NCBI GenBank assembly: GCA_964607655.1
Contig: CAZSKX010000001.1
Location: 147,434 to 211,433 of the forward strand
DNA length: 64,000 bases
Source: an uncultured Candidatus Saccharibacteria bacterium
GTDB lineage: Bacteria; Patescibacteriota; Minisyncoccia; Phycocordibacterales; Phycocordibacteraceae
Direction of reading: 5' to 3'
The notes below the pieces were generated by a model. It made no database searches and was not told the origin of the DNA. It worked only from the letters and a program-made list of their open reading frames with translations. The translations under genes were made by a program, and so were the position numbers. This document shows, in pieces, positions 16,272 to 64,000 of this stretch (within the stretch, counting starts at the first letter, position 1; the number at the start of each line of letters is the position of its first letter).

Positions 16272-17042
16272 ATGGAACTCAAAATCTTACAGTGGAATAT
16301 AGGCGGTGGGTTCATCCGAAATGCAGAAGACGACGTCATGACTCCTGGGATTTATTGCCATGACAATTTTCAATGCGTTATTGACTTCGTTAAACAAACA
16401 CAACCTGACATAATCGCCCTCCAGGAGTCGCACGCAAAAGAGGAAGGTGTACAGGCCGAGCAGTTAGCAAAGGCTCTTGGATATACCTCTTGGGTTAATG
16501 ACCCCTGTGACGACTCGCACATAGATCCCGCAGCTAAACTGTCGCAATCGATCATTTCTCGCTTTCCAATTACTTCGCATCGATTCGACTCGTTTCTCAA
16601 TCCGCACTGGACGCGGCAAGAGGGAGAGAATAAGTACCATTCTCACGAGAAAGGCATGACCACCTGTGAGCTGTCTGTCGACAACAGCACATTAGTCGTC
16701 CAGACGCTTCACGCCGTTCCGTTCAATAACTTCTTTAGCGTTCATCCAGGCAGCCCCGAGGCCGAGCCGGTGCGTGCTAGTATGGCAGTCTGTGTGCGGC
16801 CACGCGATGGTCAGTCATATGTATTGGCGGGAGATTTTAATATTGATCAAGGGCCATTGTCCGATTTTTTCCCGACACTGAAGGAAAAGGGGATAGAGGA
16901 GTTCGAACTAGATACACCAACAACTCCCAAGGGACGACATTTTGATCACGTCCTTTATCGTGACCTCACACCGGTAAGCATCAGTTCTGATCAAACTGTA
17001 TTAACCGATCACTATCCAGTTATCGCAACATTTTCTTTTTAG
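16272..17042 (+). CDS. endonuclease/exonuclease/phosphatase (EEP) family protein
   Basis: LQWNIGGG, DIIALQESH, GDFNIDQ and DHYPV motifs; about 48% GC. Confidence 0.75.
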   Translation: MELKILQWNIGGGFIRNAEDDVMTPGIYCHDNFQCVIDFVKQTQPDIIALQESHAKEEGVQAEQLAKALGYTSWVNDPCDDSHIDPAAKLSQSIISRFPITSHRFDSFLNPHWTRQEGENKYHSHEKGMTTCELSVDNSTLVVQTLHAVPFNNFFSVHPGSPEAEPVRASMAVCVRPRDGQSYVLAGDFNIDQGPLSDFFPTLKEKGIEEFELDTPTTPKGRHFDHVLYRDLTPVSISSDQTVLTDHYPVIATFSF

Positions 17043-18611: not shown

Positions 18612-18643
18612 AAAATGCCCTTCGAGGGCATTTTTGCTATACT
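18612..18643 (+). terminator. intrinsic terminator overlapping a TATACT -10 box for the downstream gene
   Basis: ATGCCC-ttcga-GGGCAT hairpin plus a T-run; TATACT lies 7 nt before the ATG at 18651. Confidence 0.55.
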
Positions 18644-18650
18644 CTGACCA

Positions 18651-19283
18651 ATGCTCTCTGCAGCTCCTTTTATAGCGGTTGGTATTATCACGCTTCTTGC
18701 GGCGATGAGCCCTGGACCAGATTTTGCCGTCGTAGCGAAGAACAGTTTGATCGGTTCGAGAAAGGTTGGCCTCGCGACCGCGCTCGGTATCGAGCTCGGC
18801 ATCTGGGTGCACTTGGCTTATATTTTGGCCGGGGTTGGTCTTATCGTCTCACAATCGATAATGCTCTTCTCGGTTATTAAATACTTGGGAGCACTCTACC
18901 TCTTGTATATGGGTGTTAAACTCTTGTTCGCAAAAAAGGAGAATCATGAGTCACATGAGCCGCTCCCGACAGAGGAACTGTCAGCGTGGGCGGCCTTTCG
19001 AGAAGGATTCTTCACCAACGTTCTTAATCCGAAAGCGACGCTGTTTTTCCTCAGCGTATTTACCCAGATTGTCGAGCCGTCGACGCCGTTTTTTGTTCAG
19101 GCCCTGATAGGCGTGGAGGTGGCGGTGGTTGTAGGAATCTGGTTCATGCTGCTCTCGCTGTTTATCACCTACGGCCCCGTAAAAGGCGTCTTTAAGAGAG
19201 TGCATCACTACGTGATGAAAGTTATGGGCGGAGCACTTATTCTCTTTGGTATTAAACTCGCCGTTGCGACGAATCGGCAGTAA
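18651..19283 (+). CDS. LysE/RhtB-family amino-acid exporter
   Basis: Six-TM profile and N-terminal SPGPDF motif. Confidence 0.8.
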   Translation: MLSAAPFIAVGIITLLAAMSPGPDFAVVAKNSLIGSRKVGLATALGIELGIWVHLAYILAGVGLIVSQSIMLFSVIKYLGALYLLYMGVKLLFAKKENHESHEPLPTEELSAWAAFREGFFTNVLNPKATLFFLSVFTQIVEPSTPFFVQALIGVEVAVVVGIWFMLLSLFITYGPVKGVFKRVHHYVMKVMGGALILFGIKLAVATNRQ

Positions 19284-19290
19284 TAATTAG

Positions 19291-19330
19291 AAAACCCCCG
19301 GCCGCACGTGTGCGGCCGGGGGTTTTCTTT
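19291..19330. terminator. bidirectional intrinsic terminator
   Basis: AAAACCCCCGGCCGCAC-gtg-TGCGGCCGGGGGTTTTC between convergent genes. Confidence 0.8.
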
Positions 19331-23976: not shown

Positions 23977-24579
23977 ATGAATACGATCGACGAACTCGCG
24001 CACGCGCTCGCCAAACTGCCGGGCATTGGCCCACGCCAAGCGAAGCGCTTTGTCTACCACTTGCTCTCGGCGTCTCCCTCAGAGCGCGCCACCCTCTCGG
24101 TCTTGATCAGTGACCTCGGCAAGAACGTGAAGCAATGCCACGATTGCATGCGCTACCACAACGCGGCGAGTGCCGAAGTTTGTAATTACTGTGGTGATCG
24201 TCGTCGTGACGACTCGCTCCTTATGCTGCTCGAGAAGGACCAAGATCTCGCGGCTGTCGAGCGTGCAGGTACTTATAAGGGCCGCTACTTTGTCCTCGGC
24301 GGGGTGCTTACCCTTACGGGCAAGGGTGCGATTCGTGAAAAAGATCTGATTCGTATACTCGAGAACCGTATTAAAAATGGTCTTAAAGAAGTAGTCCTCG
24401 CACTCTCGGCGACGAGCGAGGGCGAACACACGACTGACCATGTGCGCATTATGCTCGCTCCGTATCGCGAGCTCATCACGATCTCGCTGCTTGGTCGCGG
24501 ACTCGCCACGGGCAGCGAGCTCGAATACTCCGACGCCGAGACACTCCGGGCTGCGCTCGCTGGCCGCAAGGAGGCATGA
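23977..24579 (+). CDS. recR: recombination protein RecR
   Basis: HhH N-terminus, C4 zinc finger CHDC...CNYCGD, Toprim domain. Confidence 0.9.
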   Translation: MNTIDELAHALAKLPGIGPRQAKRFVYHLLSASPSERATLSVLISDLGKNVKQCHDCMRYHNAASAEVCNYCGDRRRDDSLLMLLEKDQDLAAVERAGTYKGRYFVLGGVLTLTGKGAIREKDLIRILENRIKNGLKEVVLALSATSEGEHTTDHVRIMLAPYRELITISLLGRGLATGSELEYSDAETLRAALAGRKEA

Positions 24580-24743
24580 ATCACAAAGTTTCAGTAGAAA
24601 AATTGACGCACTTTCAATGCGGATGGTGTAAAAGTGGTGGACTATTGGCGCGCTCCCCGCTCGAAGAAGGTCTAGCACTGTCCTTGGTGCGGCACTGAGG
24701 CCGTGGTAGAGTCGCTGCAGAAAGATTTCCGGAGGAAACGCAG

Positions 24744-25034
24744 ATGATTAAGACCGTCGAAGAAGGTCTCGAAGTCTACAGAAAGACCCTGCTCGACTAC
24801 AAAACGTTCTGTGAGGAGCACGGGGTCGGCCCGGTTAATGAGGAAGAGAGCATGATCCAGATGCCCTACCCCGAGTCGGAGTCGTTTAACGCTGTCGACG
24901 AGGGGCGGCGTAAACGTGAGATTGGACTTCGGGGCATGGAAGAGGCGCTGGGCCTGAGTTTTCAGGAACGTCTCGAGATCCTGCGCGAGCTCCACGTCAC
25001 CCGCTACGACGCACGAGCGTGGCCGATCTGGTGA
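24744..25034 (+). CDS. hypothetical protein (first gene of the GC-rich insert)
   Basis: ORF with a GGAGGA Shine-Dalgarno sequence, followed by a strong terminator. Confidence 0.4.
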   Translation: MIKTVEEGLEVYRKTLLDYKTFCEEHGVGPVNEEESMIQMPYPESESFNAVDEGRRKREIGLRGMEEALGLSFQERLEILRELHVTRYDARAWPIW

Positions 25035-25044
25035 AGAAAGAGGG

Positions 25045-25086
25045 CGGGTCGCAATCGCGTAAGAAGCGATTGCGACCCGCTTTTTC
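25045..25086 (+). terminator. intrinsic terminator
   Basis: GCGGGTCGCAATCGC-gtaagaa-GCGATTGCGACCCGC plus TTTTT. Confidence 0.8.
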
Positions 25087-25115
25087 ATAGGCTATGCTAC
25101 CGGCAGATCAGATCT

Positions 25116-25598
25116 GTGGGAGAGGATATGCGGACACTCACGTTGTGGCAGCGACGGCTGCATCTCGAGGCAATCAAAGCTGCGATCCATCGGACAAAGC
25201 CAGGACTCTGTCCTGTAGAGTTCATGATCCAGATCAAAGTGACATGGAGGGAGATTCGAGTCGATAGCAAAGGTCATTTGTACTGGCGCGGGTGCACACT
25301 CGGCCGACAGCTCTTCATCCGCCTCTCTGAGGCCCAGAACTGGCGTTGCTGCTACTGCGGGGTCCGCGTCGTCGTCGGAGAGCCACTCGATCCGCGGCTG
25401 GCGACGCTGGAGCATGTCGTACCGAAGTGCTTTGGTGGCAACGACCATCCGGACAACCTCGCAATGGCGTGTGCGAGCTGTAACAACAATCGCGGCACCG
25501 AGGCCAGTCGGCTACTGGCGAAGCGTGAGCGGCTGGTTCGGCGAGACCAACCAGTCGAGAACGAGCCGGCCAGTTTACTCGAAACAGCGCGGGCCTAG
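25116..25598 (+). CDS. HNH endonuclease
   Basis: CCYCG...LEHVVPK...DHPDNLAMACASCNNNRG, a canonical HNH/zinc-finger motif. Confidence 0.75.
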   Translation: MGEDMRTLTLWQRRLHLEAIKAAIHRTKPGLCPVEFMIQIKVTWREIRVDSKGHLYWRGCTLGRQLFIRLSEAQNWRCCYCGVRVVVGEPLDPRLATLEHVVPKCFGGNDHPDNLAMACASCNNNRGTEASRLLAKRERLVRRDQPVENEPASLLETARA

Positions 25599-25625
25599 CG
25601 TCGTAGACTTGGGTAAATACAACAC

Positions 25626-25662
25626 GGGGCGTAGCAGTGATGCTACGCCCCGTTTCTTGTTT
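25626..25662 (+). terminator. intrinsic terminator
   Basis: GGGGCGTAGCA-gtga-TGCTACGCCCC followed by GTTTCTTGTTT. Confidence 0.7.
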
Positions 25663-25865
25663 CAGCACCGCTTCCAGATGCGGTTGCCGTAGCCATCTCG
25701 TGCGGTCTGGTCCGTTCCCTTCGGTCCGTGCTCCTCGCATCGTCGGATGTCGGTCGGTTGTCCCTGCCGCATCTTTTGCCAGGTCGCTGCGTCTTCACAG
25801 TGGTTCATGGTACAGGTTCTGGATCTCGTCGGCTGTTTCAAAGACCTCTCCTTTTCTTTTCGTTT

Positions 25866-26282
25866 TTAGAGCATGGCCGCGATCGCGTCGCGGATCTCGA
25901 AGAGCGTCTGCTCGTCGACCTTGAAGTCGTAGTCGTACGGGGCATAGTTCTTGCCCCAGCGACGATCGACGAAGGTCACCCCGCCAAACACCCGTGGTTC
26001 CTCGTAGCGAGGAATCACGTGCATGTGGCACCGACGGCTGAGGTTCCCGAGCGACGCCCAGTTGAAGAGGTCTGGGGCGAACGCGCGCGTGAGCCCTCGC
26101 CTCACTTCCCCTCCGATCTTGTGTAGCTCCTCCCACTCCTCGGGCGTGGTGTCCATCAGGTCAATGAGGCTAGGCCGCTTTGACCAGATGTACACCCTGC
26201 CCAAGAAATACTGGTTCTCGTGCAGGTACACCGTCCAGTGTTGATAGTTCCTGATTCTGAAACGTTCGTAATCTACGGCCAT
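25866..26282 (-). CDS. HIT-like nucleotide hydrolase/transferase family protein
   Basis: NWASLGNLSRRCHMHVIPR resembles the HIT NnGxxAGQxVxHxHxHxxPR motif with the first His replaced; AAGGAGG Shine-Dalgarno sequence. Confidence 0.5.
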   Translation of the reverse strand: MAVDYERFRIRNYQHWTVYLHENQYFLGRVYIWSKRPSLIDLMDTTPEEWEELHKIGGEVRRGLTRAFAPDLFNWASLGNLSRRCHMHVIPRYEEPRVFGGVTFVDRRWGKNYAPYDYDFKVDEQTLFEIRDAIAAML

Positions 26283-26324
26283 TGCCGCCTCCTTGTGGTT
26301 GTTCTAACTCCGAGAGGACTATAC

Positions 26325-26363
26325 CACAAAAAAGACGTGCGGGAACAGCACTGCTGTTCCCGC
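26325..26363 (-). terminator. minus-strand intrinsic terminator
   Basis: GCGGGAACAGCA-ctg-TGCTGTTCCCGC with an A-run on the plus strand (a U-run in the minus sense). Confidence 0.6.
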
Positions 26364-26433
26364 GCGCTCTCGGTTGATCTTCGAGGCCTGGAATGTTATG
26401 TTCCCGGCAGAAGAACGTCCCACAGGAGGGTGT

Positions 26434-26679
26434 ATGACGACACTCGTCACGACCATTTCTCTCGCGCTCATGACACTTCGGTCGCACTGGCGACGCCTCG
26501 CGCGGCCGCCCGAGCTTCCGCTTCCTCCACTTGAGGTGCACCTCTGTAGGGTCGACAAGAACGGCAGAGGCTCTCTCGTGAGCTATACGTACAAGGGTCA
26601 CAAGGTCATCTTCGCTCGCGGAACGTACACGAAATACCTCGTGAACCTCAGGGTCGAAGGCAAGGGTTCTGCCAACTAA
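26434..26679 (+). CDS. small hypothetical protein (uncertain)
   Basis: 81-aa ORF with a GGAGGG Shine-Dalgarno sequence, but antisense to the 3' region of the nucleotidase transcript. Confidence 0.25.
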   Translation: MTTLVTTISLALMTLRSHWRRLARPPELPLPPLEVHLCRVDKNGRGSLVSYTYKGHKVIFARGTYTKYLVNLRVEGKGSAN

Positions 26680-26683
26680 GAAC

Positions 26684-26713
26684 GGGCGGGTTGCAGCTTG
26701 CTGCAACCCGCCC
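26684..26713. terminator. strong GC hairpin (GGGCGGGTTGCAGC-ttgc-TGCAACCCGCCC)
   Basis: Perfect 13-bp stem between convergent ORFs; the T-run is weak. Confidence 0.45.
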
Positions 26714-26732
26714 GATTTCCTTACCGCCCTCT

Positions 26733-27311
26733 CTAGAGAAGCCGCATCGCGAGTCCGTACCACGAGCGCGCACGTCGATGAGGCGGCAGCGTCGCGGCGT
26801 AGGAGCGATTCCATGGCGTTTCGAAGAGGACGGGCTGCCGTACGACCTTCGCCACGTCTTCGTCGTGATGCGGCGCATCGTCGACGAAGCTCTCGAGATC
26901 GAAGCGCTTGCACAGCTCGCTCTTATCGATCTCGGGACCAGCACCGAAGCGGTTGGTCAGGTAGAGCCGGTCCACGAGCTCGGGGAAATGTCGCCCCATG
27001 AGCTCTTGCGTGTGGCCGAGCACTCCATTCGGACGCGCTGAGATGATGAAGAGCTCGTCGCGCTCGAGCAGTCGAGGAAGGGCGCGTGCTACGCCCGGCA
27101 TGAGCTCCGTCTCCATGTGTTCCTCCGAATGATAGAACTCGAAGACACGCCGGATCCCCTCTTCGCGGGACACGCCCCAGAGCTCGTAGAGGTGATAGGA
27201 CTTGATGTCGTCACGGGTGAACTGAGTGTTGAAGCGCGCGTTGTGCCAGCGGCAGATCGCGCGGTTGGTGTCGAAGAGTACGTCGTCGAAGTCGAAGCCT
27301 CGTTTTGCCAT
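26733..27311 (-). CDS. 5'(3')-deoxyribonucleotidase (HAD superfamily, NT5C-like)
   Basis: N-terminal FDFDDVLFDT (DxDxT/V nucleophile motif) and overall NT5C-like layout. Confidence 0.65.
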   Translation of the reverse strand: MAKRGFDFDDVLFDTNRAICRWHNARFNTQFTRDDIKSYHLYELWGVSREEGIRRVFEFYHSEEHMETELMPGVARALPRLLERDELFIISARPNGVLGHTQELMGRHFPELVDRLYLTNRFGAGPEIDKSELCKRFDLESFVDDAPHHDEDVAKVVRQPVLFETPWNRSYAATLPPHRRARSWYGLAMRLL

Positions 27312-27400
27312 TATTTAATGTCCTCCAGGTACGTTTTCTGTGCCTACCATAACACAAAACCCCGGCCGTGTATACACGGCCGGGGTTTTGGTTGTATGAG

Positions 27401-28777
27401 TTAACGTCCTTGGACGAAGGTGAGCGCGATACCCTTCTGTGCGGCACGGCCGGTACGGCCGATGCGGTGCACGTAGTCCTCGTAGGTCGAGGGCAGGTCG
27501 AAGTTGATCACGTGCGAGACAGCCGGGATGTCGAGGCCGCGCGCTGCGACGTCAGTCGCCACGAGCACACTCACCTTCCCTGCCTTAAAGGCCTCGAGGG
27601 CGCGGATACGCGCGCCATGGGTCTTGTTGCCGTGGATGCTCTCGGCATGAATATGCATGCGAGAGAGTTGCTTCGCGATCTTCTCTACCCCGTGCTTAGT
27701 GCGTCCGAAGACGATCACGCGGTGGAAGCCAGGCTCCTTAAGCATCTCAGCAAGTACATCGAACTTGTCTTTGCCACGCGGGATGCGGACAACGTCTTGG
27801 TCGATCGAGGTCGGCGTGTCTGCGGTCTTAACCGAGATCACGACCGGCTTATCGAGGAAGTCGCCGATGAGGCGCTCGATATCGCGTGACATCGTCGCCG
27901 AGAAGAAGAGCGTGTGACGCTCCTTACGCATCTTGCTCAGGATGAGGCGCATGTCCTCGATAAAGCCCATGTCGAGCATACGGTCAGCTTCGTCGAGCAC
28001 CACGGTCCCAAACTCGGTGAGCACAAGCGCCTTGCGCTCCATGAGGTCCTTCAATCGGCCTGGGGTGCCGATCACGAAGGCTGGGTCGTGGCGCAATTGC
28101 GAGATCTGGGGGCCGATGTTCGCACCACCCACCGCGACCATGCCGCGGAAGCCGAGGCCTTTAGCAAAGCCGGCGAGCTCCTTCTCGATCTGTACGGCGA
28201 GCTCACGGGTCGGCGCCATCACGAGGATACGCTCACCCTTCTGCTTCATTACCTTATCGATAAGGGGGATCAGAAAGGCTGCCGTCTTACCGGTACCGGT
28301 CGCTGCAAGGCCGACCACGTCTTGGCCGAGAAGGCCGTGCGGGATCGTCTTGTCCTGGATCGGGGTTGGGTGTTCGTAGCCCTTGGCGAGAATGTTTTTC
28401 TTAAGGTTTGGGTTAATGTCGAAGTCGCTGAACTTGTGTTCAGGCACAAAGGCTGGCTCTGAGGTGGTGACAACTGCGCGGTTAGTAAACTTTGCGATCT
28501 CGGCCTCAGTCTCGCCGAAGACGCCAAAGCCTCCGCGAGAACCTCCGCGGCTAGGGCGTCCTCCGCCACCACGACTAAAACCGCCGCGGTCGCCGTAATT
28601 GCTGCGAACGAAGCGTCCGTCGGTACGGCCAGGGTTGTCACGGCGTGGGCCACCGCGACCGCCGCGCGGTCCGGCGCTACGCGCTGGTGCGCTGTATGGT
28701 TTTGAGCTCTTCTCAGCACGAGTCTTAACGTCGCCTGAGGCGGCGGTTCCGCCGTGACTCCATCGTCCTAATTGCAT
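27401..28777 (-). CDS. DEAD-box ATP-dependent RNA helicase with an N-terminal RGG-rich extension
   Basis: Q-motif, AATGTGKT, VLDEADRMLDMGF, SAT and HRIGRTGRAA motifs; the first ~100 aa are Arg/Gly-rich low complexity. Confidence 0.9.
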   Translation of the reverse strand: MQLGRWSHGGTAASGDVKTRAEKSSKPYSAPARSAGPRGGRGGPRRDNPGRTDGRFVRSNYGDRGGFSRGGGGRPSRGGSRGGFGVFGETEAEIAKFTNRAVVTTSEPAFVPEHKFSDFDINPNLKKNILAKGYEHPTPIQDKTIPHGLLGQDVVGLAATGTGKTAAFLIPLIDKVMKQKGERILVMAPTRELAVQIEKELAGFAKGLGFRGMVAVGGANIGPQISQLRHDPAFVIGTPGRLKDLMERKALVLTEFGTVVLDEADRMLDMGFIEDMRLILSKMRKERHTLFFSATMSRDIERLIGDFLDKPVVISVKTADTPTSIDQDVVRIPRGKDKFDVLAEMLKEPGFHRVIVFGRTKHGVEKIAKQLSRMHIHAESIHGNKTHGARIRALEAFKAGKVSVLVATDVAARGLDIPAVSHVINFDLPSTYEDYVHRIGRTGRAAQKGIALTFVQGR

Positions 28778-31345: not shown

Positions 31346-31417
31346 GGCCCCATCGTCTAACGGCTAGGACAGCGCCCTCTCACGGCGTAAATCGGGGTTC
31401 GATTCCCCGTGGGGTCA
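31346..31417 (+). tRNA. tRNA-Glu (anticodon CTC)
   Basis: Cloverleaf with acceptor GGCCCCA/TGGGGTC, anticodon stem GCGCC/GGCGT and loop CTCTCAC, T-loop TTCGATT. Confidence 0.75.
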
Positions 31418-39770: not shown

Positions 39771-39778
39771 ACGAATAC

Positions 39779-39850
39779 CGGCGCGGACTTGGAAACAAGT
39801 CCGCGCCGTTTCTTTTTATGCTTGACGTGAGTAGATTACCAGTTTATTAC
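39779..39850 (+). repeat. terminator-promoter cassette, copy 1 (hairpin + T-run + TTGACG-17-TATTAC)
   Basis: CGGCGCGGACTTGGAAACAAGTCCGCGCCGTTTCTTTTTAT is identical to 40953-40993. Confidence 0.75.
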
Positions 39851-40918: not shown

Positions 40919-40952
40919 ACTGGAGGGCAACGATCAATTTGATCGCCAACAA

Positions 40953-41023
40953 CGGCGCGGACTTGGAAACAAGTCCGCGCCGTTTCTTTTTATACTTGAC
41001 AAAGTATAAGGGTAGTATATACT
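40953..41023 (+). repeat. terminator-promoter cassette, copy 2 (hairpin + T-run + TTGACA-17-TATACT)
   Basis: Identical 41 nt to copy 1; the 15-mer TTGACAAAGTATAAG recurs at 56981-56995. Confidence 0.75.
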
Positions 41024-60009: not shown

Positions 60010-62055
60010 CTAACTAAACATCTTCTTTTTTCGTTTTGGCTTCTTGGGGCCAGTACCCTCGAGCTTGTAGATCTCGTCGCGGATGAGGGCGGCGGTCTCG
60101 AAGTCGAGTTTCTCTACCGCGTCAGCCATCTCTTCCCTCTTTTGTTTAATAAATTCTTCAGGGTCGACTTTGTACGCGATCGTGTCGAGCGCGAGCAGTT
60201 CATCAATAGTTTTATCGTGCTCGCTGCGCATCGAGGCGGCGATGTCATGGATTTCTTTCTTAATCGTCTGCGGAGTGATCCCATGCTTCTCGTTATAGGC
60301 GAGCTGCTTGGTGCGGCGGCGATTGGTCTCGCTGATCGCCTTCTCGAGTGAGTCGGTCATCACGTCGGCGTAGAGGATCACGCGGCCGAGTACGTTACGC
60401 GCCGCGCGGCCGATGGTCTGTATAAGTGACGTCTCAGAGCGGAGAAATCCTTCTTTATCAGCGTCGAGGATCCCCACAAGCTCTACCTCAGGCAGGTCGA
60501 GTCCTTCGCGCAGAAGGTTTACTCCTACGAGGATGTCGAACTGGCCTTTACGGAAATTGGTCAAAATATCAATACGTTCGATCGTTTTAATATCCGAGTG
60601 CAGATACTCTGCCTTGATTCCCTTCTTGCGAAGGAAGGCGGCCAAGTCTTCAGCCATCTGCTTGGTGAGGGTTGTCGCGAGTGCGCGGCCGCCGTTCTTG
60701 ATGACCTTATCAGCTTCTCCAATAAAGTCAGCGATCTGGCCCGGATATTCACCTGCTTCCACGATACCGCGCACATCGAGCTCAGGGTCGATAAGCCCAG
60801 TCGGACGGATCACCTGTTCGACGATCTGCTCTGAATATTCCTTTTCAAACTTGCCGGGCGTGGCGCTCGTGTAGATGGTTTGCCCCACGCGCTGTTCAAA
60901 CTCTTCGAAGGTGAGCGGACGGTTGTCGCGTGCCGACGGGAGGCGGAAGCCGTATTCGACCAGGTTGTCCTTACGCGAGCGGTCGCCGGCGTACATCCCG
61001 CCGATCTGAGAGACGGTGACGTGCGACTCATCGATCACGGTGAGGAAGTCCTTGTCGCACTTCTTAAAATAGTCGAGGAGCGTATAGGGCGGCTCGCCGG
61101 GCGCGCGGCCGTCGAAGTGGCGCGAGTAATTCTCGATCCCGTTCGTGTAGCCAAGCTCGCGAATGCGCGCGATATCGTGCAAAGTGCGACGCTTCAGGCG
61201 CTCAGCCTCGAGTGGCTTCTCTTCGCGCTTAAACTTGGCGAGTTGCTCGTCGAGCTCGAGTTTGATGTCCTCGATCGCGCGTTCACGCTCTTCTTCGCCA
61301 GTGACGAAGTGCTTCGCCGGGAAGACGAATGCCGTCTCGGGCTCTGCGCGCAGCGCGCGCGTGACCGGATCGATCAGCTCAATGCGCGCGACGACATCGC
61401 CGTCGAAGGCGACACGATAGATCGCGCGTTCGTTGACTGGCATAAACTCGAGCGCGTTCCCCACTGCGCGGAACTGTCCTGGGTTTAAGTCAGCAGTCGT
61501 GCGCTCGAAGTAGATGGCGACGAGTTTACGAATCAGTCCGTGGCGCCCACCCTCGAGCTCTTCTCCCTTCGCGATCTTCACGTTCACCTTCTCGTACTCC
61601 TCGGGTGAACCGAGGCCGTAGATCACTGAGACCGAGCCGACGATAATCACGTCCTTGCGCGTCAGCAGCGCCTGCGTCGCAGCGTGGCGCAGACGGTCGA
61701 TCTCGGCGTTTATCATCGCCTCCTTCTCGATGTAGGTGTCAGAGTGCGCGATGTATGCCTCGGGCTGGTAGTAGTCGTAGTAGGAGACGAAGTAGTGCAC
61801 CGCATTCTCGGGGAAGAACTCGCGATACTCCTGCGCGAGCTGGGCAGCGAGGGTCTTGTTGTGCGCGAGCACGAGGGTCGGCTTGTCCGCCTTGGCGATC
61901 ACGTTGGCCATGGTGAAGGTTTTCCCCGTCCCCGTGGCGCCAAAAAGCGTCTGATGACGCATTCCCTGCTCGAGCCCCTCTTCGAGCTTCTTGATCGCCT
62001 CCGGCTGATCCCCTGCCGGCGGCCACTTGGTATGGAGTTTGAAGTTTCTTGACAT
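60010..62055 (-). CDS. uvrB: excinuclease ABC subunit B
   Basis: [17 protein letters not shown] helicase motif I, beta-hairpin region, C-terminal UVR domain. Confidence 0.95.
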
Positions 62056-62098
62056 AAAGACTCTGTATTATACATCAAACGCATTTCGACGCATCCGT

Positions 62099-62908
62099 TT
62101 ATAGGGCCATCTCCTGAGTCTCTGCAGTTTCTTGATTAAAAAGAACGCGATGCTTGATAGAAATGATAGTATCGCCATTATTGTCTGTTCCTTCAACATC
62201 TCCAAACTCGAATACAATGGTGTTGCTGCTGCGGTCTTCGTGACATTGGATGTCGACTGGACCAAATGACCAAGTGTCGGCTTCTGGAGCTAGATTTGGG
62301 TACTTGGCAAATAATTCGAGCACAGGAGTGAAGCTTGGTACCGCATAGACAGACGCGTCAGCGGATCCATCAAGCGGAGTGTTGTAGCAAGTATAAAAAT
62401 ATTTTTCTGAGGAGGTGAAGGTGCCTGAACCCATGGGAATGTTCATGACTTCCTTGTTTTGTTTTATGTCATAGATATGGTGCGCACCTCCTTCCCAGAA
62501 TCCAATATAATATTCAAAATATGTCTGGGATGGGCTGAAATGAACGTACCCGAATTTTCCATCACGGACCTGACTAACGTTGTATGAAGTGGTAGCTATG
62601 CGAATTGGATGTGCTCCGGATACCGCAAGCCAGAGTTCTGTGGCTTGATCGTGAGAAATCGTATACACCCGCAAGCCGTCCTCGTCGTATAAGACTTGTT
62701 CTGCGGCAGTCATGGCTCTTTGATCCAATCGCTTCTCTGTGGTTGAAGCGGCGGTTGATAGTGGCGTAGTTGTCGCCGCATAGGGTACAGTTGCAATTCC
62801 ATGATTGTCATAGGCTAAAAAAGTTACAAAAGCGACTAACGCACTTATAAGAAGCAGTGATGTAAGATGTCTCCTCACCACGCTAGAGTTTAACAGTTTA
62901 CTTTGCAT
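62099..62908 (-). CDS. hypothetical secreted protein (about 43% GC)
   Basis: Start placed at MQSKLLNSS with a signal/TM segment LLLISALVAFVTFLA; overlaps the tgt 3' end by 11 nt. Confidence 0.45.
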   Translation of the reverse strand: MQSKLLNSSVVRRHLTSLLLISALVAFVTFLAYDNHGIATVPYAATTTPLSTAASTTEKRLDQRAMTAAEQVLYDEDGLRVYTISHDQATELWLAVSGAHPIRIATTSYNVSQVRDGKFGYVHFSPSQTYFEYYIGFWEGGAHHIYDIKQNKEVMNIPMGSGTFTSSEKYFYTCYNTPLDGSADASVYAVPSFTPVLELFAKYPNLAPEADTWSFGPVDIQCHEDRSSNTIVFEFGDVEGTDNNGDTIISIKHRVLFNQETAETQEMAL

Positions 62909-64000
62909 AATAATCCCTCTCAAAATCTTTTCGATACTCGGTGAAGCGGTCGTCGAGGATAGCTTGGCGGGCGTCGGAGACAAGCTTGAGAATAAAGCCG
63001 AGGTTGTGCTGCGAACAGATGATCGAACCAAGCATTTCTTTCGAGCGGATTAGGTGTGCGAGGTAGGCACGAGTAAAGGGCTCGGTGCCGGGGATAATGG
63101 TCTCCGGGTCGAGTGGGTTAAAATCGTTTTTAAACTTCTCTCCGGTGAGATGGATGATCCCTCGACGGGTGTAGATAGATCCGTGACGGCCGATTCGTGT
63201 TGCCGCAACGCAGTCGAAGAGGTCGATACCATTTGCAATCCCCTCTAAAATATCGCCCGGCTCGCCGATGCCGAGGAAGTGCTTCGGCAATTCTTCGGGC
63301 AACTCCCCCATTGCGGCTTGGAGCGCTCCGCGCATATCTTTCTTAGTAAATGAGCCGCCGATACCGATGCCATCAAAGCCTAGCGAAGCGATTTCTTTTG
63401 CACTCTCACGGCGGAGGTCTTCGTGCCGCCCACCTTGAACGATACCGAAAATAGCCTGTTTCTCACGTGCATTAATATTTTGTCGATGCGCCTTCAAACT
63501 TCTCTCGGCCCACCGGTGCGTGCGATCCATCGCCTCCTTTTGATACTCGTACGGCTCAGTCGGCGAGGTGCACTCGTCGAAGGCGAAGAACATATCGGCG
63601 CCCAAGGCGTGCTGGATCTCGATCGATCGCTCAGGGGTAAAGCGGTGGAGAGAGCCGTCGAGGTGTGAGGTGAAGGTGACGCCCTCCTCATCGATCACGG
63701 CCAGCTGTCCGTGCTGACTCGCGACGTCTTGGTCGTACACGGCCAGCTGCTCCTGCTTCTCGGTCGTCTCCCCTATCTCTCCTTTTGTAAACTTCGAAAT
63801 AGTTTTACCAAAGGCGGCACCGAGCGAGAATACCTGGAAGCCGCCCGAGTCGGTCATCGTGGGCCCGTCCCAGCCCATAAACTTCCCGAACCCCCCAGCT
63901 TGTTCGACGATCTTCTCGCCGGGCTGGAGGTAGAGATGGTAGGTGTTGGCGAGCACCACTTCGGCCCCCACTTGCTTGAGGATCTCAGGTGAGACACCTT
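62898..64000 (-). CDS. tgt: queuine tRNA-ribosyltransferase (N-terminus beyond the window end)
   Basis: LANTYHLYLQPG...LTDSGGFQVFSL and zinc-binding region; the frame remains open to the window edge. Confidence 0.85.
   Translation of the reverse strand, partial: GVSPEILKQVGAEVVLANTYHLYLQPGEKIVEQAGGFGKFMGWDGPTMTDSGGFQVFSLGAAFGKTISKFTKGEIGETTEKQEQLAVYDQDVASQHGQLAVIDEEGVTFTSHLDGSLHRFTPERSIEIQHALGADMFFAFDECTSPTEPYEYQKEAMDRTHRWAERSLKAHRQNINAREKQAIFGIVQGGRHEDLRRESAKEIASLGFDGIGIGGSFTKKDMRGALQAAMGELPEELPKHFLGIGEPGDILEGIANGIDLFDCVAATRIGRHGSIYTRRGIIHLTGEKFKNDFNPLDPETIIPGTEPFTRAYLAHLIRSKEMLGSIICSQHNLGFILKLVSDARQAILDDRFTEYRKDFERDYYAK

What the first reader, a model, noticed from the sequence alone, without database searches (positions are those of the whole stretch)
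24590..27350. GC-rich ~2.7 kb insert between recR and the DEAD-box helicase carrying HNH endonuclease, HIT-like and NT5C-type deoxynucleotidase genes
The segment differs from its surroundings: every frame is open, as expected for very high GC, and there are many overlapping artefactual ORFs. It is organised as monocistronic units, each closed by its own perfect hairpin terminator (25045, 25626, 26325, 26684). The identifiable products are a hypothetical protein, an HNH nuclease, a HIT-family hydrolase with a degenerate His triad (RCHMHV) and a 5'(3')-deoxyribonucleotidase. All three are typical of phage or mobile-element cargo, or of nucleotide salvage.
Basis: partly seen in the sequence, partly recalled or inferred. 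Interest (0 to 1): 0.55.

Follow-up and report, generated by a model that had tools for sequence, protein, structure and literature searches.

The report
Accessory-gene islet downstream of recR
The 2.8 kb between recR and a DEAD-box helicase gene in this small-genome (CPR/Paceibacteria-like) bacterium is an ordinary, long-resident patch of small accessory genes at a gene-turnover hotspot, not a GC-rich or recently arrived mobile element.

Summary
The genes and hairpins are real. The segment (24580-27400) holds an HNH nuclease, a HIT hydrolase, an NT5C-type deoxyribonucleotidase, two orphan small proteins (96 and 81 aa), an unannotated 59-aa CCCH zinc mini-protein and a decayed zinc-ribbon ORF, separated by five very stable terminator hairpins.

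The two nearest species-level relatives in GTDB (L001, L002) have recR followed directly by the helicase, so the segment is extra DNA there.

It is not GC-rich: 58.2% against a window mean of 55.9% (85th percentile). Tetranucleotide and codon usage are host-like. There is no integrase, transposase, att-like repeat or attC motif, and no similarity to phage DNA.

Its core is shared at about 85% amino-acid identity with two metagenomic relatives. HNH alone, or HIT alone, sits at the same junction in more distant relatives. Content differs by whole-gene indels whose breakpoints lie at or in terminator hairpins.

Across 43 Paceibacteria loci the recR/L21 junction is either tight or filled with unrelated cargo, which makes it a hotspot.

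The His triad is normal for its HIT subfamily. The function is probably nucleotide housekeeping; this is inferred, not shown. Interest is low to moderate.

The parts
23977..24579 (+). recR, the left flanking core gene
   Evidence: Pfam RecR_HhH, Toprim_4 and RecR_C. It follows dnaB in nearly all related loci that extend past dnaB.
24576..24735 (+). Decayed zinc-ribbon ORF whose ATG overlaps the recR stop codon (ATGA). It is intact in relatives (58 aa in L081) and carries two frameshifts and a TAG here.
   Evidence: Three-frame translations against L081. tblastn of the L081 protein hits the window as two fragments in different frames, while L081, L089 and L086-88 have it intact at 69-76% identity. 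DNA alignment.
24744..25034 (+). hyp96, an acidic 96-aa protein of unknown function. It is absent from L081 and L089.
   Evidence: A GGAGG motif lies 8 nt upstream of the ATG. GC3 is 0.72 against GC2 0.37, and CAI z is +0.2. It is a singleton cluster among 15 billion proteins. No Pfam, NCBIfam or PADLOC hit, and only a chance-level PHROG hit at E = 0.074. One distant relative (35% identity, identical N-terminus MIKTVEEGLEVY) lies next to dnaK in another CPR contig, L098. The indel against L081 and L089 runs from window 24692 to about 25067-25089.
25044..25080 (+). Terminator hairpin of hyp96: 15-bp perfect stem, 7-nt loop, then TTTTT. Its right arm is homologous to the 3' end of the zinc-ribbon ORF in L081 and L089.
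   Evidence: Folding energy -36.7 kcal/mol, z = -8.0. Alignments.
25128..25598 (+). HNH endonuclease, 156 aa: an N-terminal helical domain plus a zinc-bound beta-beta-alpha-Me nuclease.
   Evidence: Pfam HNH at 1.1e-7, scanned on the longer ORF starting at 25116. Many PHROG HNH families, down to 4e-15. In the family alignment C74, C75, C77, H96, N110, C115, C118 and N119 are invariant. AF2 pLDDT is 90.3. The best fold matches are the Gme HNH nickase 4h9d and Cas9 HNH domains, all at weak Foldseek E-values of 0.03 or worse. The ATG start at 25128 matches the 156-aa orthologues.
25624..25653 (.). Bidirectional terminator hairpin (13 bp) shared by HNH (+) and the HIT-sm59 unit (-). It is conserved in L081 and L089.
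25662..25841 (-). sm59, an unannotated mini-protein with a C-x4-C-x19-C-x2-H motif. The start is TTG at 25841 after AAGGAG, or alternatively ATG at 25808.
   Evidence: It is conserved in frame, ending on the same WKRC-stop, in L081 (73%) and L089 (46%). In L089 it stands alone with its own ATG, and HIT is absent. It is homologous to the C-terminal extension fused to HIT in P0003 and P0005. It follows HIT in the same frame after a single TAA in both the window and L081. Not in the protein collection.
25866..26282 (-). HIT-family protein, 138 aa, of the Fhit / Ap4A-phosphorylase-like branch.
   Evidence: 32 homologues. Motif and invariant residues. Profile against PDB 2oik at 2.9e-16. An AF2 model of the fused relative P0005 has pLDDT 88.6. 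Its best fold matches are 3ano (Rv2613c Ap4A phosphorylase), 2eo4, 3i4s, 2oik and Fhit.
26339..26363 (-). 12-bp hairpin followed by TTTTTT on the minus strand. It corresponds to the single NT5C-to-HIT terminator of L081.
26434..26679 (+). sm81, an 81-aa orphan with a hydrophobic N-terminus. It is absent from L081.
   Evidence: AGGAGG lies 7 nt upstream of the ATG. GC3 is 0.72. It is a singleton cluster, and the source annotation calls the same 81-aa product. No family hit and no phage or viral relative. The indel covers window 26364-26709.
26683..26714 (.). Bidirectional terminator hairpin (15 bp) between the convergent genes sm81 and NT5C. L089's NT5C terminator has the same inner stem.
   Evidence: L089 sequence.
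26733..27311 (-). NT5C-type (HAD superfamily) 5'(3')-deoxyribonucleotidase-like protein, 192 aa.
   Evidence: Pfam NT5C at 33.7 bits. phrog_420 at 1e-17. 2887 relatives at E <= 1e-3 among 1.84 billion representatives. All 36 aligned members hit PF06941. D7, D9, K130 and D145 are invariant. The profile hits the deoxyribonucleotidase structures 3bwv, 1mh9 and 4l57.
27355..27390 (-). Terminator of the DEAD-box helicase gene: an 18-bp perfect palindrome with the U-tract inside the stem.
   Evidence: L001 and L002 have an unrelated single hairpin at the same position.
27401..28777 (-). DEAD-box helicase, the right flanking gene. It is present at this junction only in the window, L001, L002, L090 and L092.
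   Evidence: Pfam DEAD at 6e-47 and Helicase_C at 4e-33. Synteny.

Best explanation
The stretch between the stop codons of recR and the DEAD-box helicase gene is a chromosomal accessory-gene islet. It sits at a convergent-gene junction (recR pointing towards DEAD/L21) that acts as a gene-turnover hotspot in Paceibacteria/Kaiserbacteria-like CPR bacteria.

The islet holds five short transcription units in mixed orientation. Each ends in a strong intrinsic-terminator hairpin, which insulates the small genes from each other and from the convergent core genes.

It was not delivered as one mobile element. It accreted, and has been trimmed, by whole-gene insertions and deletions whose breakpoints lie at or inside the terminators. 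It has been inherited vertically long enough to take on host composition.

Shown: the gene content, the catalytic motifs, the hairpins, the synteny series and the host-like composition.

Inferred: the function.
- The HIT enzyme has an intact nucleophile His and belongs to the Fhit / Ap4A-phosphorylase-like branch. It probably works with the CCCH zinc mini-protein that is fused to it in relatives.
- The NT5C-type nucleotidase, which lies directly upstream of HIT in L081, probably acts on (deoxy)nucleotide or dinucleoside-polyphosphate pools. That would be nucleotide housekeeping or salvage in an organism with limited biosynthesis.
- The HNH protein is an intact stand-alone nuclease of unknown target.
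- The two orphans are of unknown function.
For: Organism and synteny:
- 80 DnaB-anchored loci are nearly all Patescibacteria/Paceibacteria.
- The order S41 peptidase-cysS-dnaB-recR, then L21-rmuC on the opposite strand, is widely conserved.
- Among 43 loci with both recR and L21, the median gap is 294 bp. About 16 loci carry 0.4-2.7 kb of unrelated cargo, including a 412-aa and a 190-aa ORF in L006, a 295-aa ORF in L015, and a 319-aa ORF in L003. These gap ORFs were listed but not scanned against any family library.

Nested series at this junction:
- L001, L002: recR | DEAD.
- L090: recR-HNH | DEAD.
- L086-88: recR-ZnR | HIT fused to the Zn domain.
- L089: recR-ZnR-HNH | sm59-NT5C.
- L081: recR-ZnR-HNH | sm59-HIT-NT5C.
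- Window: all of these plus hyp96 and sm81.

Inheritance: island genes diverge roughly in step with housekeeping genes. Against L081, HNH is 85%, HIT 86% and NT5C 86% identical, versus 88-94% for core genes. Against L086, HIT is 64% versus 68-86%.

Composition: GC, tetranucleotide content, GC3 and codon usage are all host-like.

No mobility signs.

Hairpins: strong and terminator-like.

Indels: against L081 they are whole genes, mostly with a hairpin. L081's single hairpin combines the outer clamp of window hairpin 26683-26714 with the inner stem of 26339-26363, while L089 keeps the 26683-type stem next to NT5C.

Enzymes.

HIT context: in unrelated genomes this HIT subfamily sits beside other phosphatase or nucleotide genes, His_Phos_1 in both contexts and NUDIX and PHP in one.

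Literature: many chromosomal HGT hotspots lack recognisable mobile elements (Oliveira et al. 2017, PMC5635113).
Against: - Only parts of the relatives' genomes were available. L001 and L002 may have lost the islet rather than never having had it, and their HIT, NT5C or HNH homologues could lie elsewhere.
- The direction of the hyp96 and sm81 indels (gain or loss) is unresolved. The three closest genomes are nearly equidistant: 82.8, 81.3 and 81.1% nucleotide identity, with 424, 351 and 348 informative sites.
- No experiment or expression data support the proposed functions.
- The NT5C-HIT linkage is seen only in this small clade.
- HNH adjacency to recR in several lineages could instead mean a DNA-repair role.
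Confidence: 0.68

Rival explanations
1. A recently integrated mobile element or phage remnant carrying nuclease and nucleotide-metabolism cargo.
For: The segment is absent from L001 and L002 at the same junction. HNH and NT5C match PHROG families at the profile level: phrog_9545 at 4e-15 and phrog_420 at 1e-17. Small monocistronic genes in mixed orientation resemble phage morons.
Against: - Composition and codon usage are host-like.
- There is no integrase, transposase or flanking repeat.
- No relative turned up in IMG/VR for HIT, NT5C, hyp96 or sm81, nor in 50,697 phage records for NT5C, hyp96 or sm81.
- The core is shared and diverges in step with housekeeping genes in L081, L089, L086 and L090.
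- Single genes, not the block, differ between relatives.
Confidence: 0.06
2. A DNA-repair module functionally tied to recR. The zinc-ribbon protein is translationally coupled to recR, the HNH is a structure-specific nuclease, and the HIT plus zinc-finger protein acts like aprataxin, removing 5'-adenylates from DNA ends.
For: - The zinc-ribbon ORF overlaps the recR stop codon (ATGA) and is conserved in L081, L089 and L086-88.
- HNH, or HIT fused to the Zn domain, directly follows recR or the zinc-ribbon ORF in five lineages.
- More distant HNH relatives sit next to dnaA-dnaN, or near a peptidase S24 (LexA-type) gene, a Y-family polymerase (IMS) gene and a GIY-YIG/UvrC-type gene.
- HIT followed by a C-terminal zinc finger is the aprataxin domain order (my own knowledge).
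Against: - The best sequence and fold matches of the HIT are Fhit, Ap4A-phosphorylase and uncharacterised HITs. No aprataxin appears in the top 50 Foldseek hits or in the profile search.
- The zinc-ribbon gene is decayed in the window, so it is dispensable.
- L001, L002 and about 40 other relatives lack all of these genes next to recR.
- This junction collects unrelated cargo in other genomes, so adjacency is weak evidence.
Confidence: 0.1
3. An anti-phage defence or toxin-immunity islet, with HNH as effector and the HIT and NT5C enzymes depleting or altering nucleotides.
For: HNH gives weak hits to Septu PtuB and other PADLOC HNH models, best 4.3e-8 at 31 bits. Variable hotspots often hold defence genes. 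Nucleotide-depleting defence is known (my own knowledge).
Against: - There is no PtuA or other partner, and none of the other five proteins matches any PADLOC model.
- The HNH hits cover only the generic nuclease core.
- HNH occurs alone between recR and DEAD in L090, with no candidate immunity gene.
- hyp96, the only upstream candidate partner, is missing in L081 and L089.
Confidence: 0.07
4. Terminator hairpins themselves serve as recombination sites that shuffle single-gene cassettes. This would be an integron-like or IS200/IS605-like process with no recognised recombinase.
For: - Three of the four indels against L081 are one gene plus one hairpin.
- The sm81 breakpoint lies inside a hairpin arm at CCCGC, and L081 has a hybrid hairpin.
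- The right arm of the hyp96 terminator is homologous to host sequence in L081 and L089.
- A 53-nt repeat of terminator plus TTGAC brackets 1.17 kb elsewhere in the window.
Against: - There are no attC core motifs.
- Gene orientations are mixed, and the hairpins are unrelated in sequence.
- The Exo_endo_phos indel has no hairpin, and L081's hairpin at the LysE site is not a hybrid.
- No Y1, tyrosine or serine recombinase is nearby.
- Insertions survive only in intergenic DNA, which is where terminators lie. Microhomology deletion between GC-rich stems explains the hybrid hairpin.
Confidence: 0.07

Closest known systems
Chromosomal hotspots of gene turnover between conserved core genes that lack mobile-element hallmarks (Oliveira, Touchon, Cury & Rocha 2017, Nat Commun 8:841, PMC5635113)
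   Same: Variable accessory genes sit in one interval between conserved core genes. Gene content turns over quickly between relatives. There is no integrase, transposase or att site.
   Different: This case is in a reduced CPR genome of a few hundred kb. The islet is tiny (2.8 kb, six or seven genes under 200 aa). Every unit has its own strong terminator, and the content has host-like composition.
Fhit / Ap4A-phosphorylase-like HIT proteins (Rv2613c, PDB 3ano; uncharacterised HITs 2oik, 3i4s; Fhit 1fit)
   Same: The HIT fold is predicted, and the nucleophile His and the following His are conserved within H-x-H-V-I-P.
   Different: The first His of the triad is Q, H or R in this subfamily. There is a distinctive NQYFLGRVYIWSKR segment and a RWGKNYAPYDYDF tail. 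The protein is associated with, or fused to, a CCCH-type mini zinc domain. The substrate is unknown.
5'(3')-deoxyribonucleotidases of the NT5C family (human cdN and mdN, PDB 2i7d and 1mh9; bacterial 3bwv)
   Same: It is a Pfam NT5C member. HAD motif I (D-x-D), the motif III Lys and the motif IV Asp are invariant, and the length is similar at about 195 aa.
   Different: Identity to solved structures is low, with profile E-values of 1e-8 to 1e-5. At 90% clustering the only relatives are L081's protein and one JGI sequence. Specificity was not tested.
Small stand-alone zinc-bound HNH nucleases (Gme HNH nicking endonuclease, PDB 4h9d; HNH domains of Cas9 and IscB)
   Same: It has the beta-beta-alpha-Me core with two CxxC pairs, a catalytic His and Asn residues.
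   Different: It has its own conserved N-terminal helical domain of about 65 aa with no structural match. It is not part of any CRISPR, IscB, retron or Septu system.
Integron cassette arrays and CALINs
   Same: A string of short single-gene units, each followed by a hairpin-forming sequence.
   Different: Orientations are mixed. The hairpins are perfect, short, GC-rich stems with T-tracts, which marks them as intrinsic terminators. They lack the RYYYAAC and GTTRRRY core sites, there is no IntI, and the genes have their own ribosome-binding sites.

Membership tests
HNH endonuclease (PF01844, beta-beta-alpha-Me) | Profile match above the curated threshold | tested here: met
   PF01844 at 32.3 bits against a 21.4 cut-off, and PF14279 at 30.9 against 27.5.
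HNH endonuclease (PF01844, beta-beta-alpha-Me) | Catalytic His, metal-binding Asn and two zinc-binding CxxC pairs | tested here: met
   C74/C77, H96, N110, C115/C118 and N119 are invariant in 18 homologues. The AF2 model (pLDDT 90.3) best matches HNH structures, though all at weak Foldseek E-values of 0.03 or worse.
HIT superfamily (PF01230) | Profile match above the curated threshold | tested here: inconclusive
   The window protein scores 20.0 bits against the 21.5 cut-off. However, 18 of its 31 listed homologues carry a precomputed PF01230 hit, P0005 scores 27.2 bits, and the family profile hits HIT structure 2oik at 2.9e-16.
HIT superfamily (PF01230) | His-x-His-x-His-x-x motif with the middle His as nucleophile | tested here: met
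   The window has R-C-H86-M-H88-V-I. H86 is invariant and H88 is conserved in 90% or more of the family. The first position is Q, H, R or L across the family. That the first His is not essential comes from my own knowledge of Fhit and Hint.
HIT superfamily (PF01230) | HIT alpha+beta fold | tested here: met
   An AF2 model of relative P0005 (64% identical) has pLDDT 88.6. 49 PDB matches have E <= 1e-3, all from the HIT/GalT superfamily. The window protein itself was not modelled.
Aprataxin-type HIT-zinc-finger DNA deadenylases | Closest sequence or fold relatives are aprataxins, with a C2H2 finger packed on the HIT domain | tested here: not met
   No aprataxin appears among the profile hits or the top 50 Foldseek hits. 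The zinc motif is C-x4-C-x19-C-x2-H and is a separate ORF here.
NT5C 5'(3')-deoxyribonucleotidase (PF06941, HAD superfamily) | Profile match above the curated threshold | tested here: met
   33.7 bits against the 24.8 cut-off. All 36 aligned relatives match PF06941.
NT5C 5'(3')-deoxyribonucleotidase (PF06941, HAD superfamily) | HAD catalytic motifs: D-x-D nucleophile and acid, the motif III Lys and the motif IV Asp | tested here: met
   D7, D9, K130 and D145 are invariant in 36 sequences. The motifs DFDDV, IISARP and VDDAPHH are visible.
NT5C 5'(3')-deoxyribonucleotidase (PF06941, HAD superfamily) | Phosphatase activity on dNMPs | not testable with these tools
   This needs an enzyme assay.
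Integrative mobile element or genomic island | Integrase or transposase gene | tested here: not met
   None of the six proteins, nor the alternative ORFs, matches such a family.
Integrative mobile element or genomic island | Flanking direct repeats (att) or a tRNA target | tested here: not met
   There is no significant repeat between the borders. The apparent copy of the helicase 3' end at the left border is at chance level, reached by 67 of 500 shuffles. The nearest tRNA is at 31346.
Integrative mobile element or genomic island | Composition deviating from the host | tested here: not met
   GC is at the 85th percentile and the tetranucleotide distance at the 82nd. Codon-usage z-scores run from -1.6 to +1.1.
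Integron cassette array / CALIN | attC sites with RYYYAAC and GTTRRRY cores, uniform orientation, and IntI nearby | tested here: not met
   No core motif lies within 40 nt of any of the five hairpins. The gene order is + + - - + -.
Septu (PtuA/PtuB) defence system | A PtuA ATPase next to the PtuB HNH | tested here: not met
   Only weak PtuB-like HNH hits were found, and there is no PtuA.
Rho-independent (intrinsic) terminators | A GC-rich stem-loop followed by a U-tract, downstream of a gene | tested here: met
   The consensus scan finds 25044, 25624, 26339 and 26683. All five hairpins fold at -28 to -37 kcal/mol with z of -5.9 or lower. The U-tracts are weak for 26683-26714. Actual termination was not tested.

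The most novel reading that the evidence does not exclude
In these reduced CPR genomes, GC-clamped terminator hairpins may be the preferred breakpoints for gaining and losing single-gene units. That would give a cassette-like turnover of small genes without any dedicated recombinase. Three observations point this way but do not show it: the hybrid hairpin in L081, the sm81 breakpoint inside a stem at CCCGC, and the hyp96 terminator whose right arm is host zinc-ribbon sequence.
Probability: 0.08. Interest if true: 0.6.

Novelty: new member of a known kind. Interest (0 to 1): 0.27.

Why it matters
The main value is as a correction. A segment flagged as a GC-rich foreign insert turns out to be a native-looking, long-resident accessory islet.

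It also gives a clean small example of how a reduced CPR genome gains and loses genes. The changes occur one short gene at a time, at one convergent junction that is a hotspot across Paceibacteria, with terminators marking the edges of the indels.

It turns up several small items for annotation:
- An unannotated CCCH mini-protein that is fused to a HIT enzyme in relatives.
- A recR-coupled zinc-ribbon gene that is a pseudogene here.
- A small HNH family with its own N-terminal domain.
- Two orphan proteins.

None of this changes current understanding. The HIT-plus-zinc-domain and NT5C pair is a modest lead for nucleotide metabolism in organisms thought to depend on scavenged nucleotides.

Tried and rejected
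- att-like duplication. MAFFT aligned window 24640-24700 with the helicase 3' end of L001, which suggested a displaced copy. Local alignment scored 19, against 16.3 +/- 2.2 for shuffles, and 67 of 500 shuffles reached it. Rejected.
- Phage origin. Four IMG/VR scans (HIT, NT5C, hyp96, sm81) and three tblastn searches of phage records (hyp96, sm81, NT5C) found nothing.
- Defence system. PADLOC gave only generic HNH hits.
- Aprataxin analogy for HIT plus the zinc domain. Not supported by the profile or fold searches.
- Integron-like cassettes. No attC cores.
- Exact-sequence look-ups of recR and of the window's own HIT protein (P0001) returned nothing.
- The NT5C word-based homologue search found only itself and L081's protein. 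The exhaustive HMMER search was needed to place the family.
- A two-sequence NT5C profile found no PDB hit. The 36-sequence profile did.
- Rfam gave only a sub-threshold ftsZ-DE hit that overlaps a terminator.
- Polarity of the hyp96 and sm81 indels could not be settled, because the three-genome tree is nearly a star.
- One paper look-up timed out. A literature search combining Patescibacteria with nucleotidase and nucleotide salvage found no paper.

Full report
**What is there**

ORF listing and the raw sequence show the following between recR (23977-24579, +) and a DEAD-box helicase gene (27401-28777, -), both confirmed by Pfam:
- A 96-aa ORF, hyp96 (24744-25034, +).
- An HNH endonuclease (25128-25598, +; the ATG start agrees with the 156-aa orthologues).
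- A 59-aa Cys-rich ORF, sm59 (25662-25841, -).
- A HIT-like protein (25866-26282, -).
- An 81-aa ORF, sm81, with an AGGAGG ribosome-binding site (26434-26679, +).
- An NT5C-type HAD phosphatase (26733-27311, -).

Perfect inverted repeats lie at 25044-25080, 25624-25653, 26339-26363, 26683-26714 and 27355-27390.
- As RNA they fold at -28 to -37 kcal/mol, with z = -5.9 to -8.0 and no shuffle folding as well.
- Four are picked up by the terminator consensus scan.
- Five of the window's 18 perfect hairpins of 10 bp or more lie in these 2.8 kb. The expectation is 0.79 and the post-hoc Poisson P is 0.0014.

It missed sm59, sm81, the fifth hairpin and a pseudogene described below.

**Composition**

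The segment is not GC-rich in any useful sense.
- GC is 58.2% against 55.9% for the window, the 85th percentile of same-size windows.
- The tetranucleotide distance to the window is at the 82nd percentile, and the most deviant regions are around 30 kb and 16 kb.
- GC3 and a CAI-like index, measured against 33 long genes of the window, are host-like for all six genes. CAI z runs from -1.6 to +1.1, and GC3 z from +0.4 to +2.2.
- ORFs of 60 aa or more are denser here (21 against 14.3 +/- 2.7, 97th percentile) and stop triplets rarer (7th percentile). The impression of 'many open frames' therefore has a basis, but it reflects slightly high GC3 in short genes on both strands, not foreign DNA.

**Organism and synteny**

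A DnaB-anchored scan of one genome per GTDB species returned 80 loci, nearly all Patescibacteria (Paceibacteria, Kaiserbacteria and similar). tblastn of 14 window proteins against them shows two things.
- The order S41 peptidase-cysS-dnaB-recR, with L21-rmuC convergent on the other strand, is widely conserved.
- None of the 80 loci has any of the six islet genes within 10 kb.

In the nearest species (L001 and L002, DnaB 82% and 77% identical) recR is followed by the DEAD helicase after 89 and 55 bp that hold a single hairpin.

Closer relatives were found through the islet proteins themselves.
- L081, a Logan contig (core proteins 88-94% identical, about 82% nucleotide identity), has recR, a 58-aa zinc-ribbon ORF, HNH, sm59, HIT and NT5C.
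- L089, a JGI contig, has recR, the zinc-ribbon ORF, HNH, sm59 and NT5C, and lacks HIT.
- L086-88 have recR, the zinc-ribbon ORF and a HIT fused to an sm59-like C-terminal domain.
- L090-92 have recR followed by a 136-aa HNH, and L090 and L092 then run into the helicase 3' end.

Islet genes diverge roughly in step with housekeeping genes. The islet is therefore old in this clade and inherited vertically, with lineage-specific differences.

Across the 43 loci that have both recR and L21, the median gap is 294 bp. About 16 loci hold 0.4-2.7 kb of unrelated ORFs. The junction is therefore a recurrent site of gene turnover. This is the known kind of hotspot that often lacks mobile-element hallmarks (Oliveira et al. 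2017, PMC5635113).

**How content changes**

Against L081, the 13 kb of shared sequence shows four indels, each a whole gene:
- An Exo_endo_phos gene (16272-17042).
- A LysE gene (18651-19283).
- hyp96.
- sm81.

Three of the four involve hairpins. Where the window has hairpin-gene-hairpin, L081 has one hairpin.

The sm81 breakpoint lies inside a stem, after CCCGC.
- L081's hairpin has the outer clamp of 26683-26714 and the inner stem of 26339-26363.
- L089 keeps the 26683-type stem next to NT5C.
- This favours loss of sm81 in L081 by deletion between two hairpins.

The hyp96 indel has the same borders in L081 and L089.
- The right arm of the hyp96 terminator is homologous to the 3' end of their zinc-ribbon ORF.
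- In the window that ORF is broken by two frameshifts and a TAG.
- The three genomes are almost equidistant, so the direction of this change is unresolved.

No integrase, transposase, att-like repeat or attC core is present.

**The proteins**

HNH:
- It passes the Pfam thresholds.
- In 18 homologues the two CxxC pairs, H96, N110 and N119 are invariant.
- The AF2 model (pLDDT 90.3) best matches the Gme HNH nickase and Cas9 HNH domains, at weak E-values of 0.03 or worse. The conserved N-terminal helical domain of about 65 aa has no match.

HIT:
- The window protein is 1.5 bits below Pfam's cut-off. Its family profile hits the HIT structure 2oik at 2.9e-16.
- The modelled fused relative (pLDDT 88.6) matches Rv2613c Ap4A phosphorylase, several uncharacterised HITs and Fhit. 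It does not match aprataxin.
- The motif R-C-H-M-H-V is normal for the subfamily. The first position is Q in 18, H in 11, R in 2 and L in 1 of 32 sequences, H86 is invariant and H88 nearly so.
- In unrelated genomes this HIT sits next to His_Phos_1 (both contexts) and NUDIX and PHP genes (one context).

sm59:
- It has a conserved C-x4-C-x19-C-x2-H motif.
- It stands alone in L089, follows HIT in frame after one TAA in the window and L081, and is fused to HIT in P0003 and P0005.

NT5C:
- It passes Pfam.
- It belongs to a large family, with 2887 representatives at E <= 1e-3.
- D7, D9, K130 and D145 are invariant.
- Its profile hits the solved 5'(3')-deoxyribonucleotidases.

hyp96 and sm81:
- Both are singletons at 90% clustering with no family hit.
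- hyp96 has one distant relative beside dnaK in another CPR contig.

**Interpretation**

The best reading is a native accessory-gene islet at a convergent-junction hotspot.
- It was built and trimmed gene by gene.
- Strong terminators insulate each short unit.
- Gene content, motifs, hairpins, synteny and composition are shown.
- The role of HIT (with sm59) and NT5C in nucleotide-pool housekeeping or salvage is inferred. So is any role for the HNH.

The rivals are less supported, for the reasons given under each: a recent mobile or phage element, a recR-linked repair module, a defence islet, and hairpin-mediated cassette exchange. The last is the most novel reading the data do not exclude, at about 8%.

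**Verdict**

The novelty level is a new member of a known kind. Interest is about 0.27.

Noticed in passing
window 39774-39826 and 40948-41000: A 53-nt direct repeat (94% identical) spaced 1174 bp apart. Each copy consists of a 13-15-bp terminator hairpin, a T-tract and TTGAC. The bracketed segment holds only short or ambiguous ORFs. It looks like a duplicated terminator/promoter boundary around an inserted or duplicated unit.
   Followed up: partly
window 16272-17042: A 256-aa Exo_endo_phos family gene starts 2 nt after the upstream stop codon. It is absent from L081. It is the only clearly foreign-looking gene seen: GC 47.7%, GC3 z = -2.6, CAI z = -2.2.
   Followed up: partly
window 18612-19328: A LysE-family gene (18651-19283) lies between the L27 and L9 genes and is flanked by two hairpins. 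It is present in L089, where the second stem shows compensatory changes, and absent in L081, which has one unrelated hairpin there.
   Followed up: partly
window 24576-24735; L081 1960-2133 (-); L089 6364-6498: A small zinc-ribbon gene (CxxC...CPWCG) whose ATG overlaps the recR stop codon is conserved in four related lineages. In the window it is a pseudogene, or an assembly error, with two frameshifts and a TAG.
   Followed up: yes
window 25842-25868: HIT and sm59 are in the same reading frame, separated by a single TAA, in both the window and L081. They are fused in P0003 and P0005. Re-initiation at the TTG after AAGGAG seems likelier than read-through, but neither was tested.
   Followed up: partly
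L004 10001-12619: The dnaB gene of this Candidatus Kaiserbacteria MAG is interrupted by about 1.2 kb between residues ~426 and ~389-464 of the query. This may be an intein or an inserted gene.
   Followed up: no
window 27327-27390 (+): A sub-threshold Rfam match to ftsZ-DE RNA: 34.5 bits against a gathering score of 72.2, E = 6e-4. It overlaps the helicase terminator palindrome and is probably driven by the hairpin.
   Followed up: no
L002 13893-17191 vs window 60056-63968: In L002 the DNA after the L21 gene corresponds to window 60-64 kb rather than to rmuC. This is a rearrangement between close relatives.
   Followed up: no
L098 3621-3854: A 77-aa protein has the same N-terminus as hyp96 (MIKTVEEGLEVY.K). 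It lies divergent from dnaK, 2.3 kb from cysS-dnaB-recR-L21, in a low-GC CPR contig. This hints at a rare small-protein family in Paceibacteria.
   Followed up: partly
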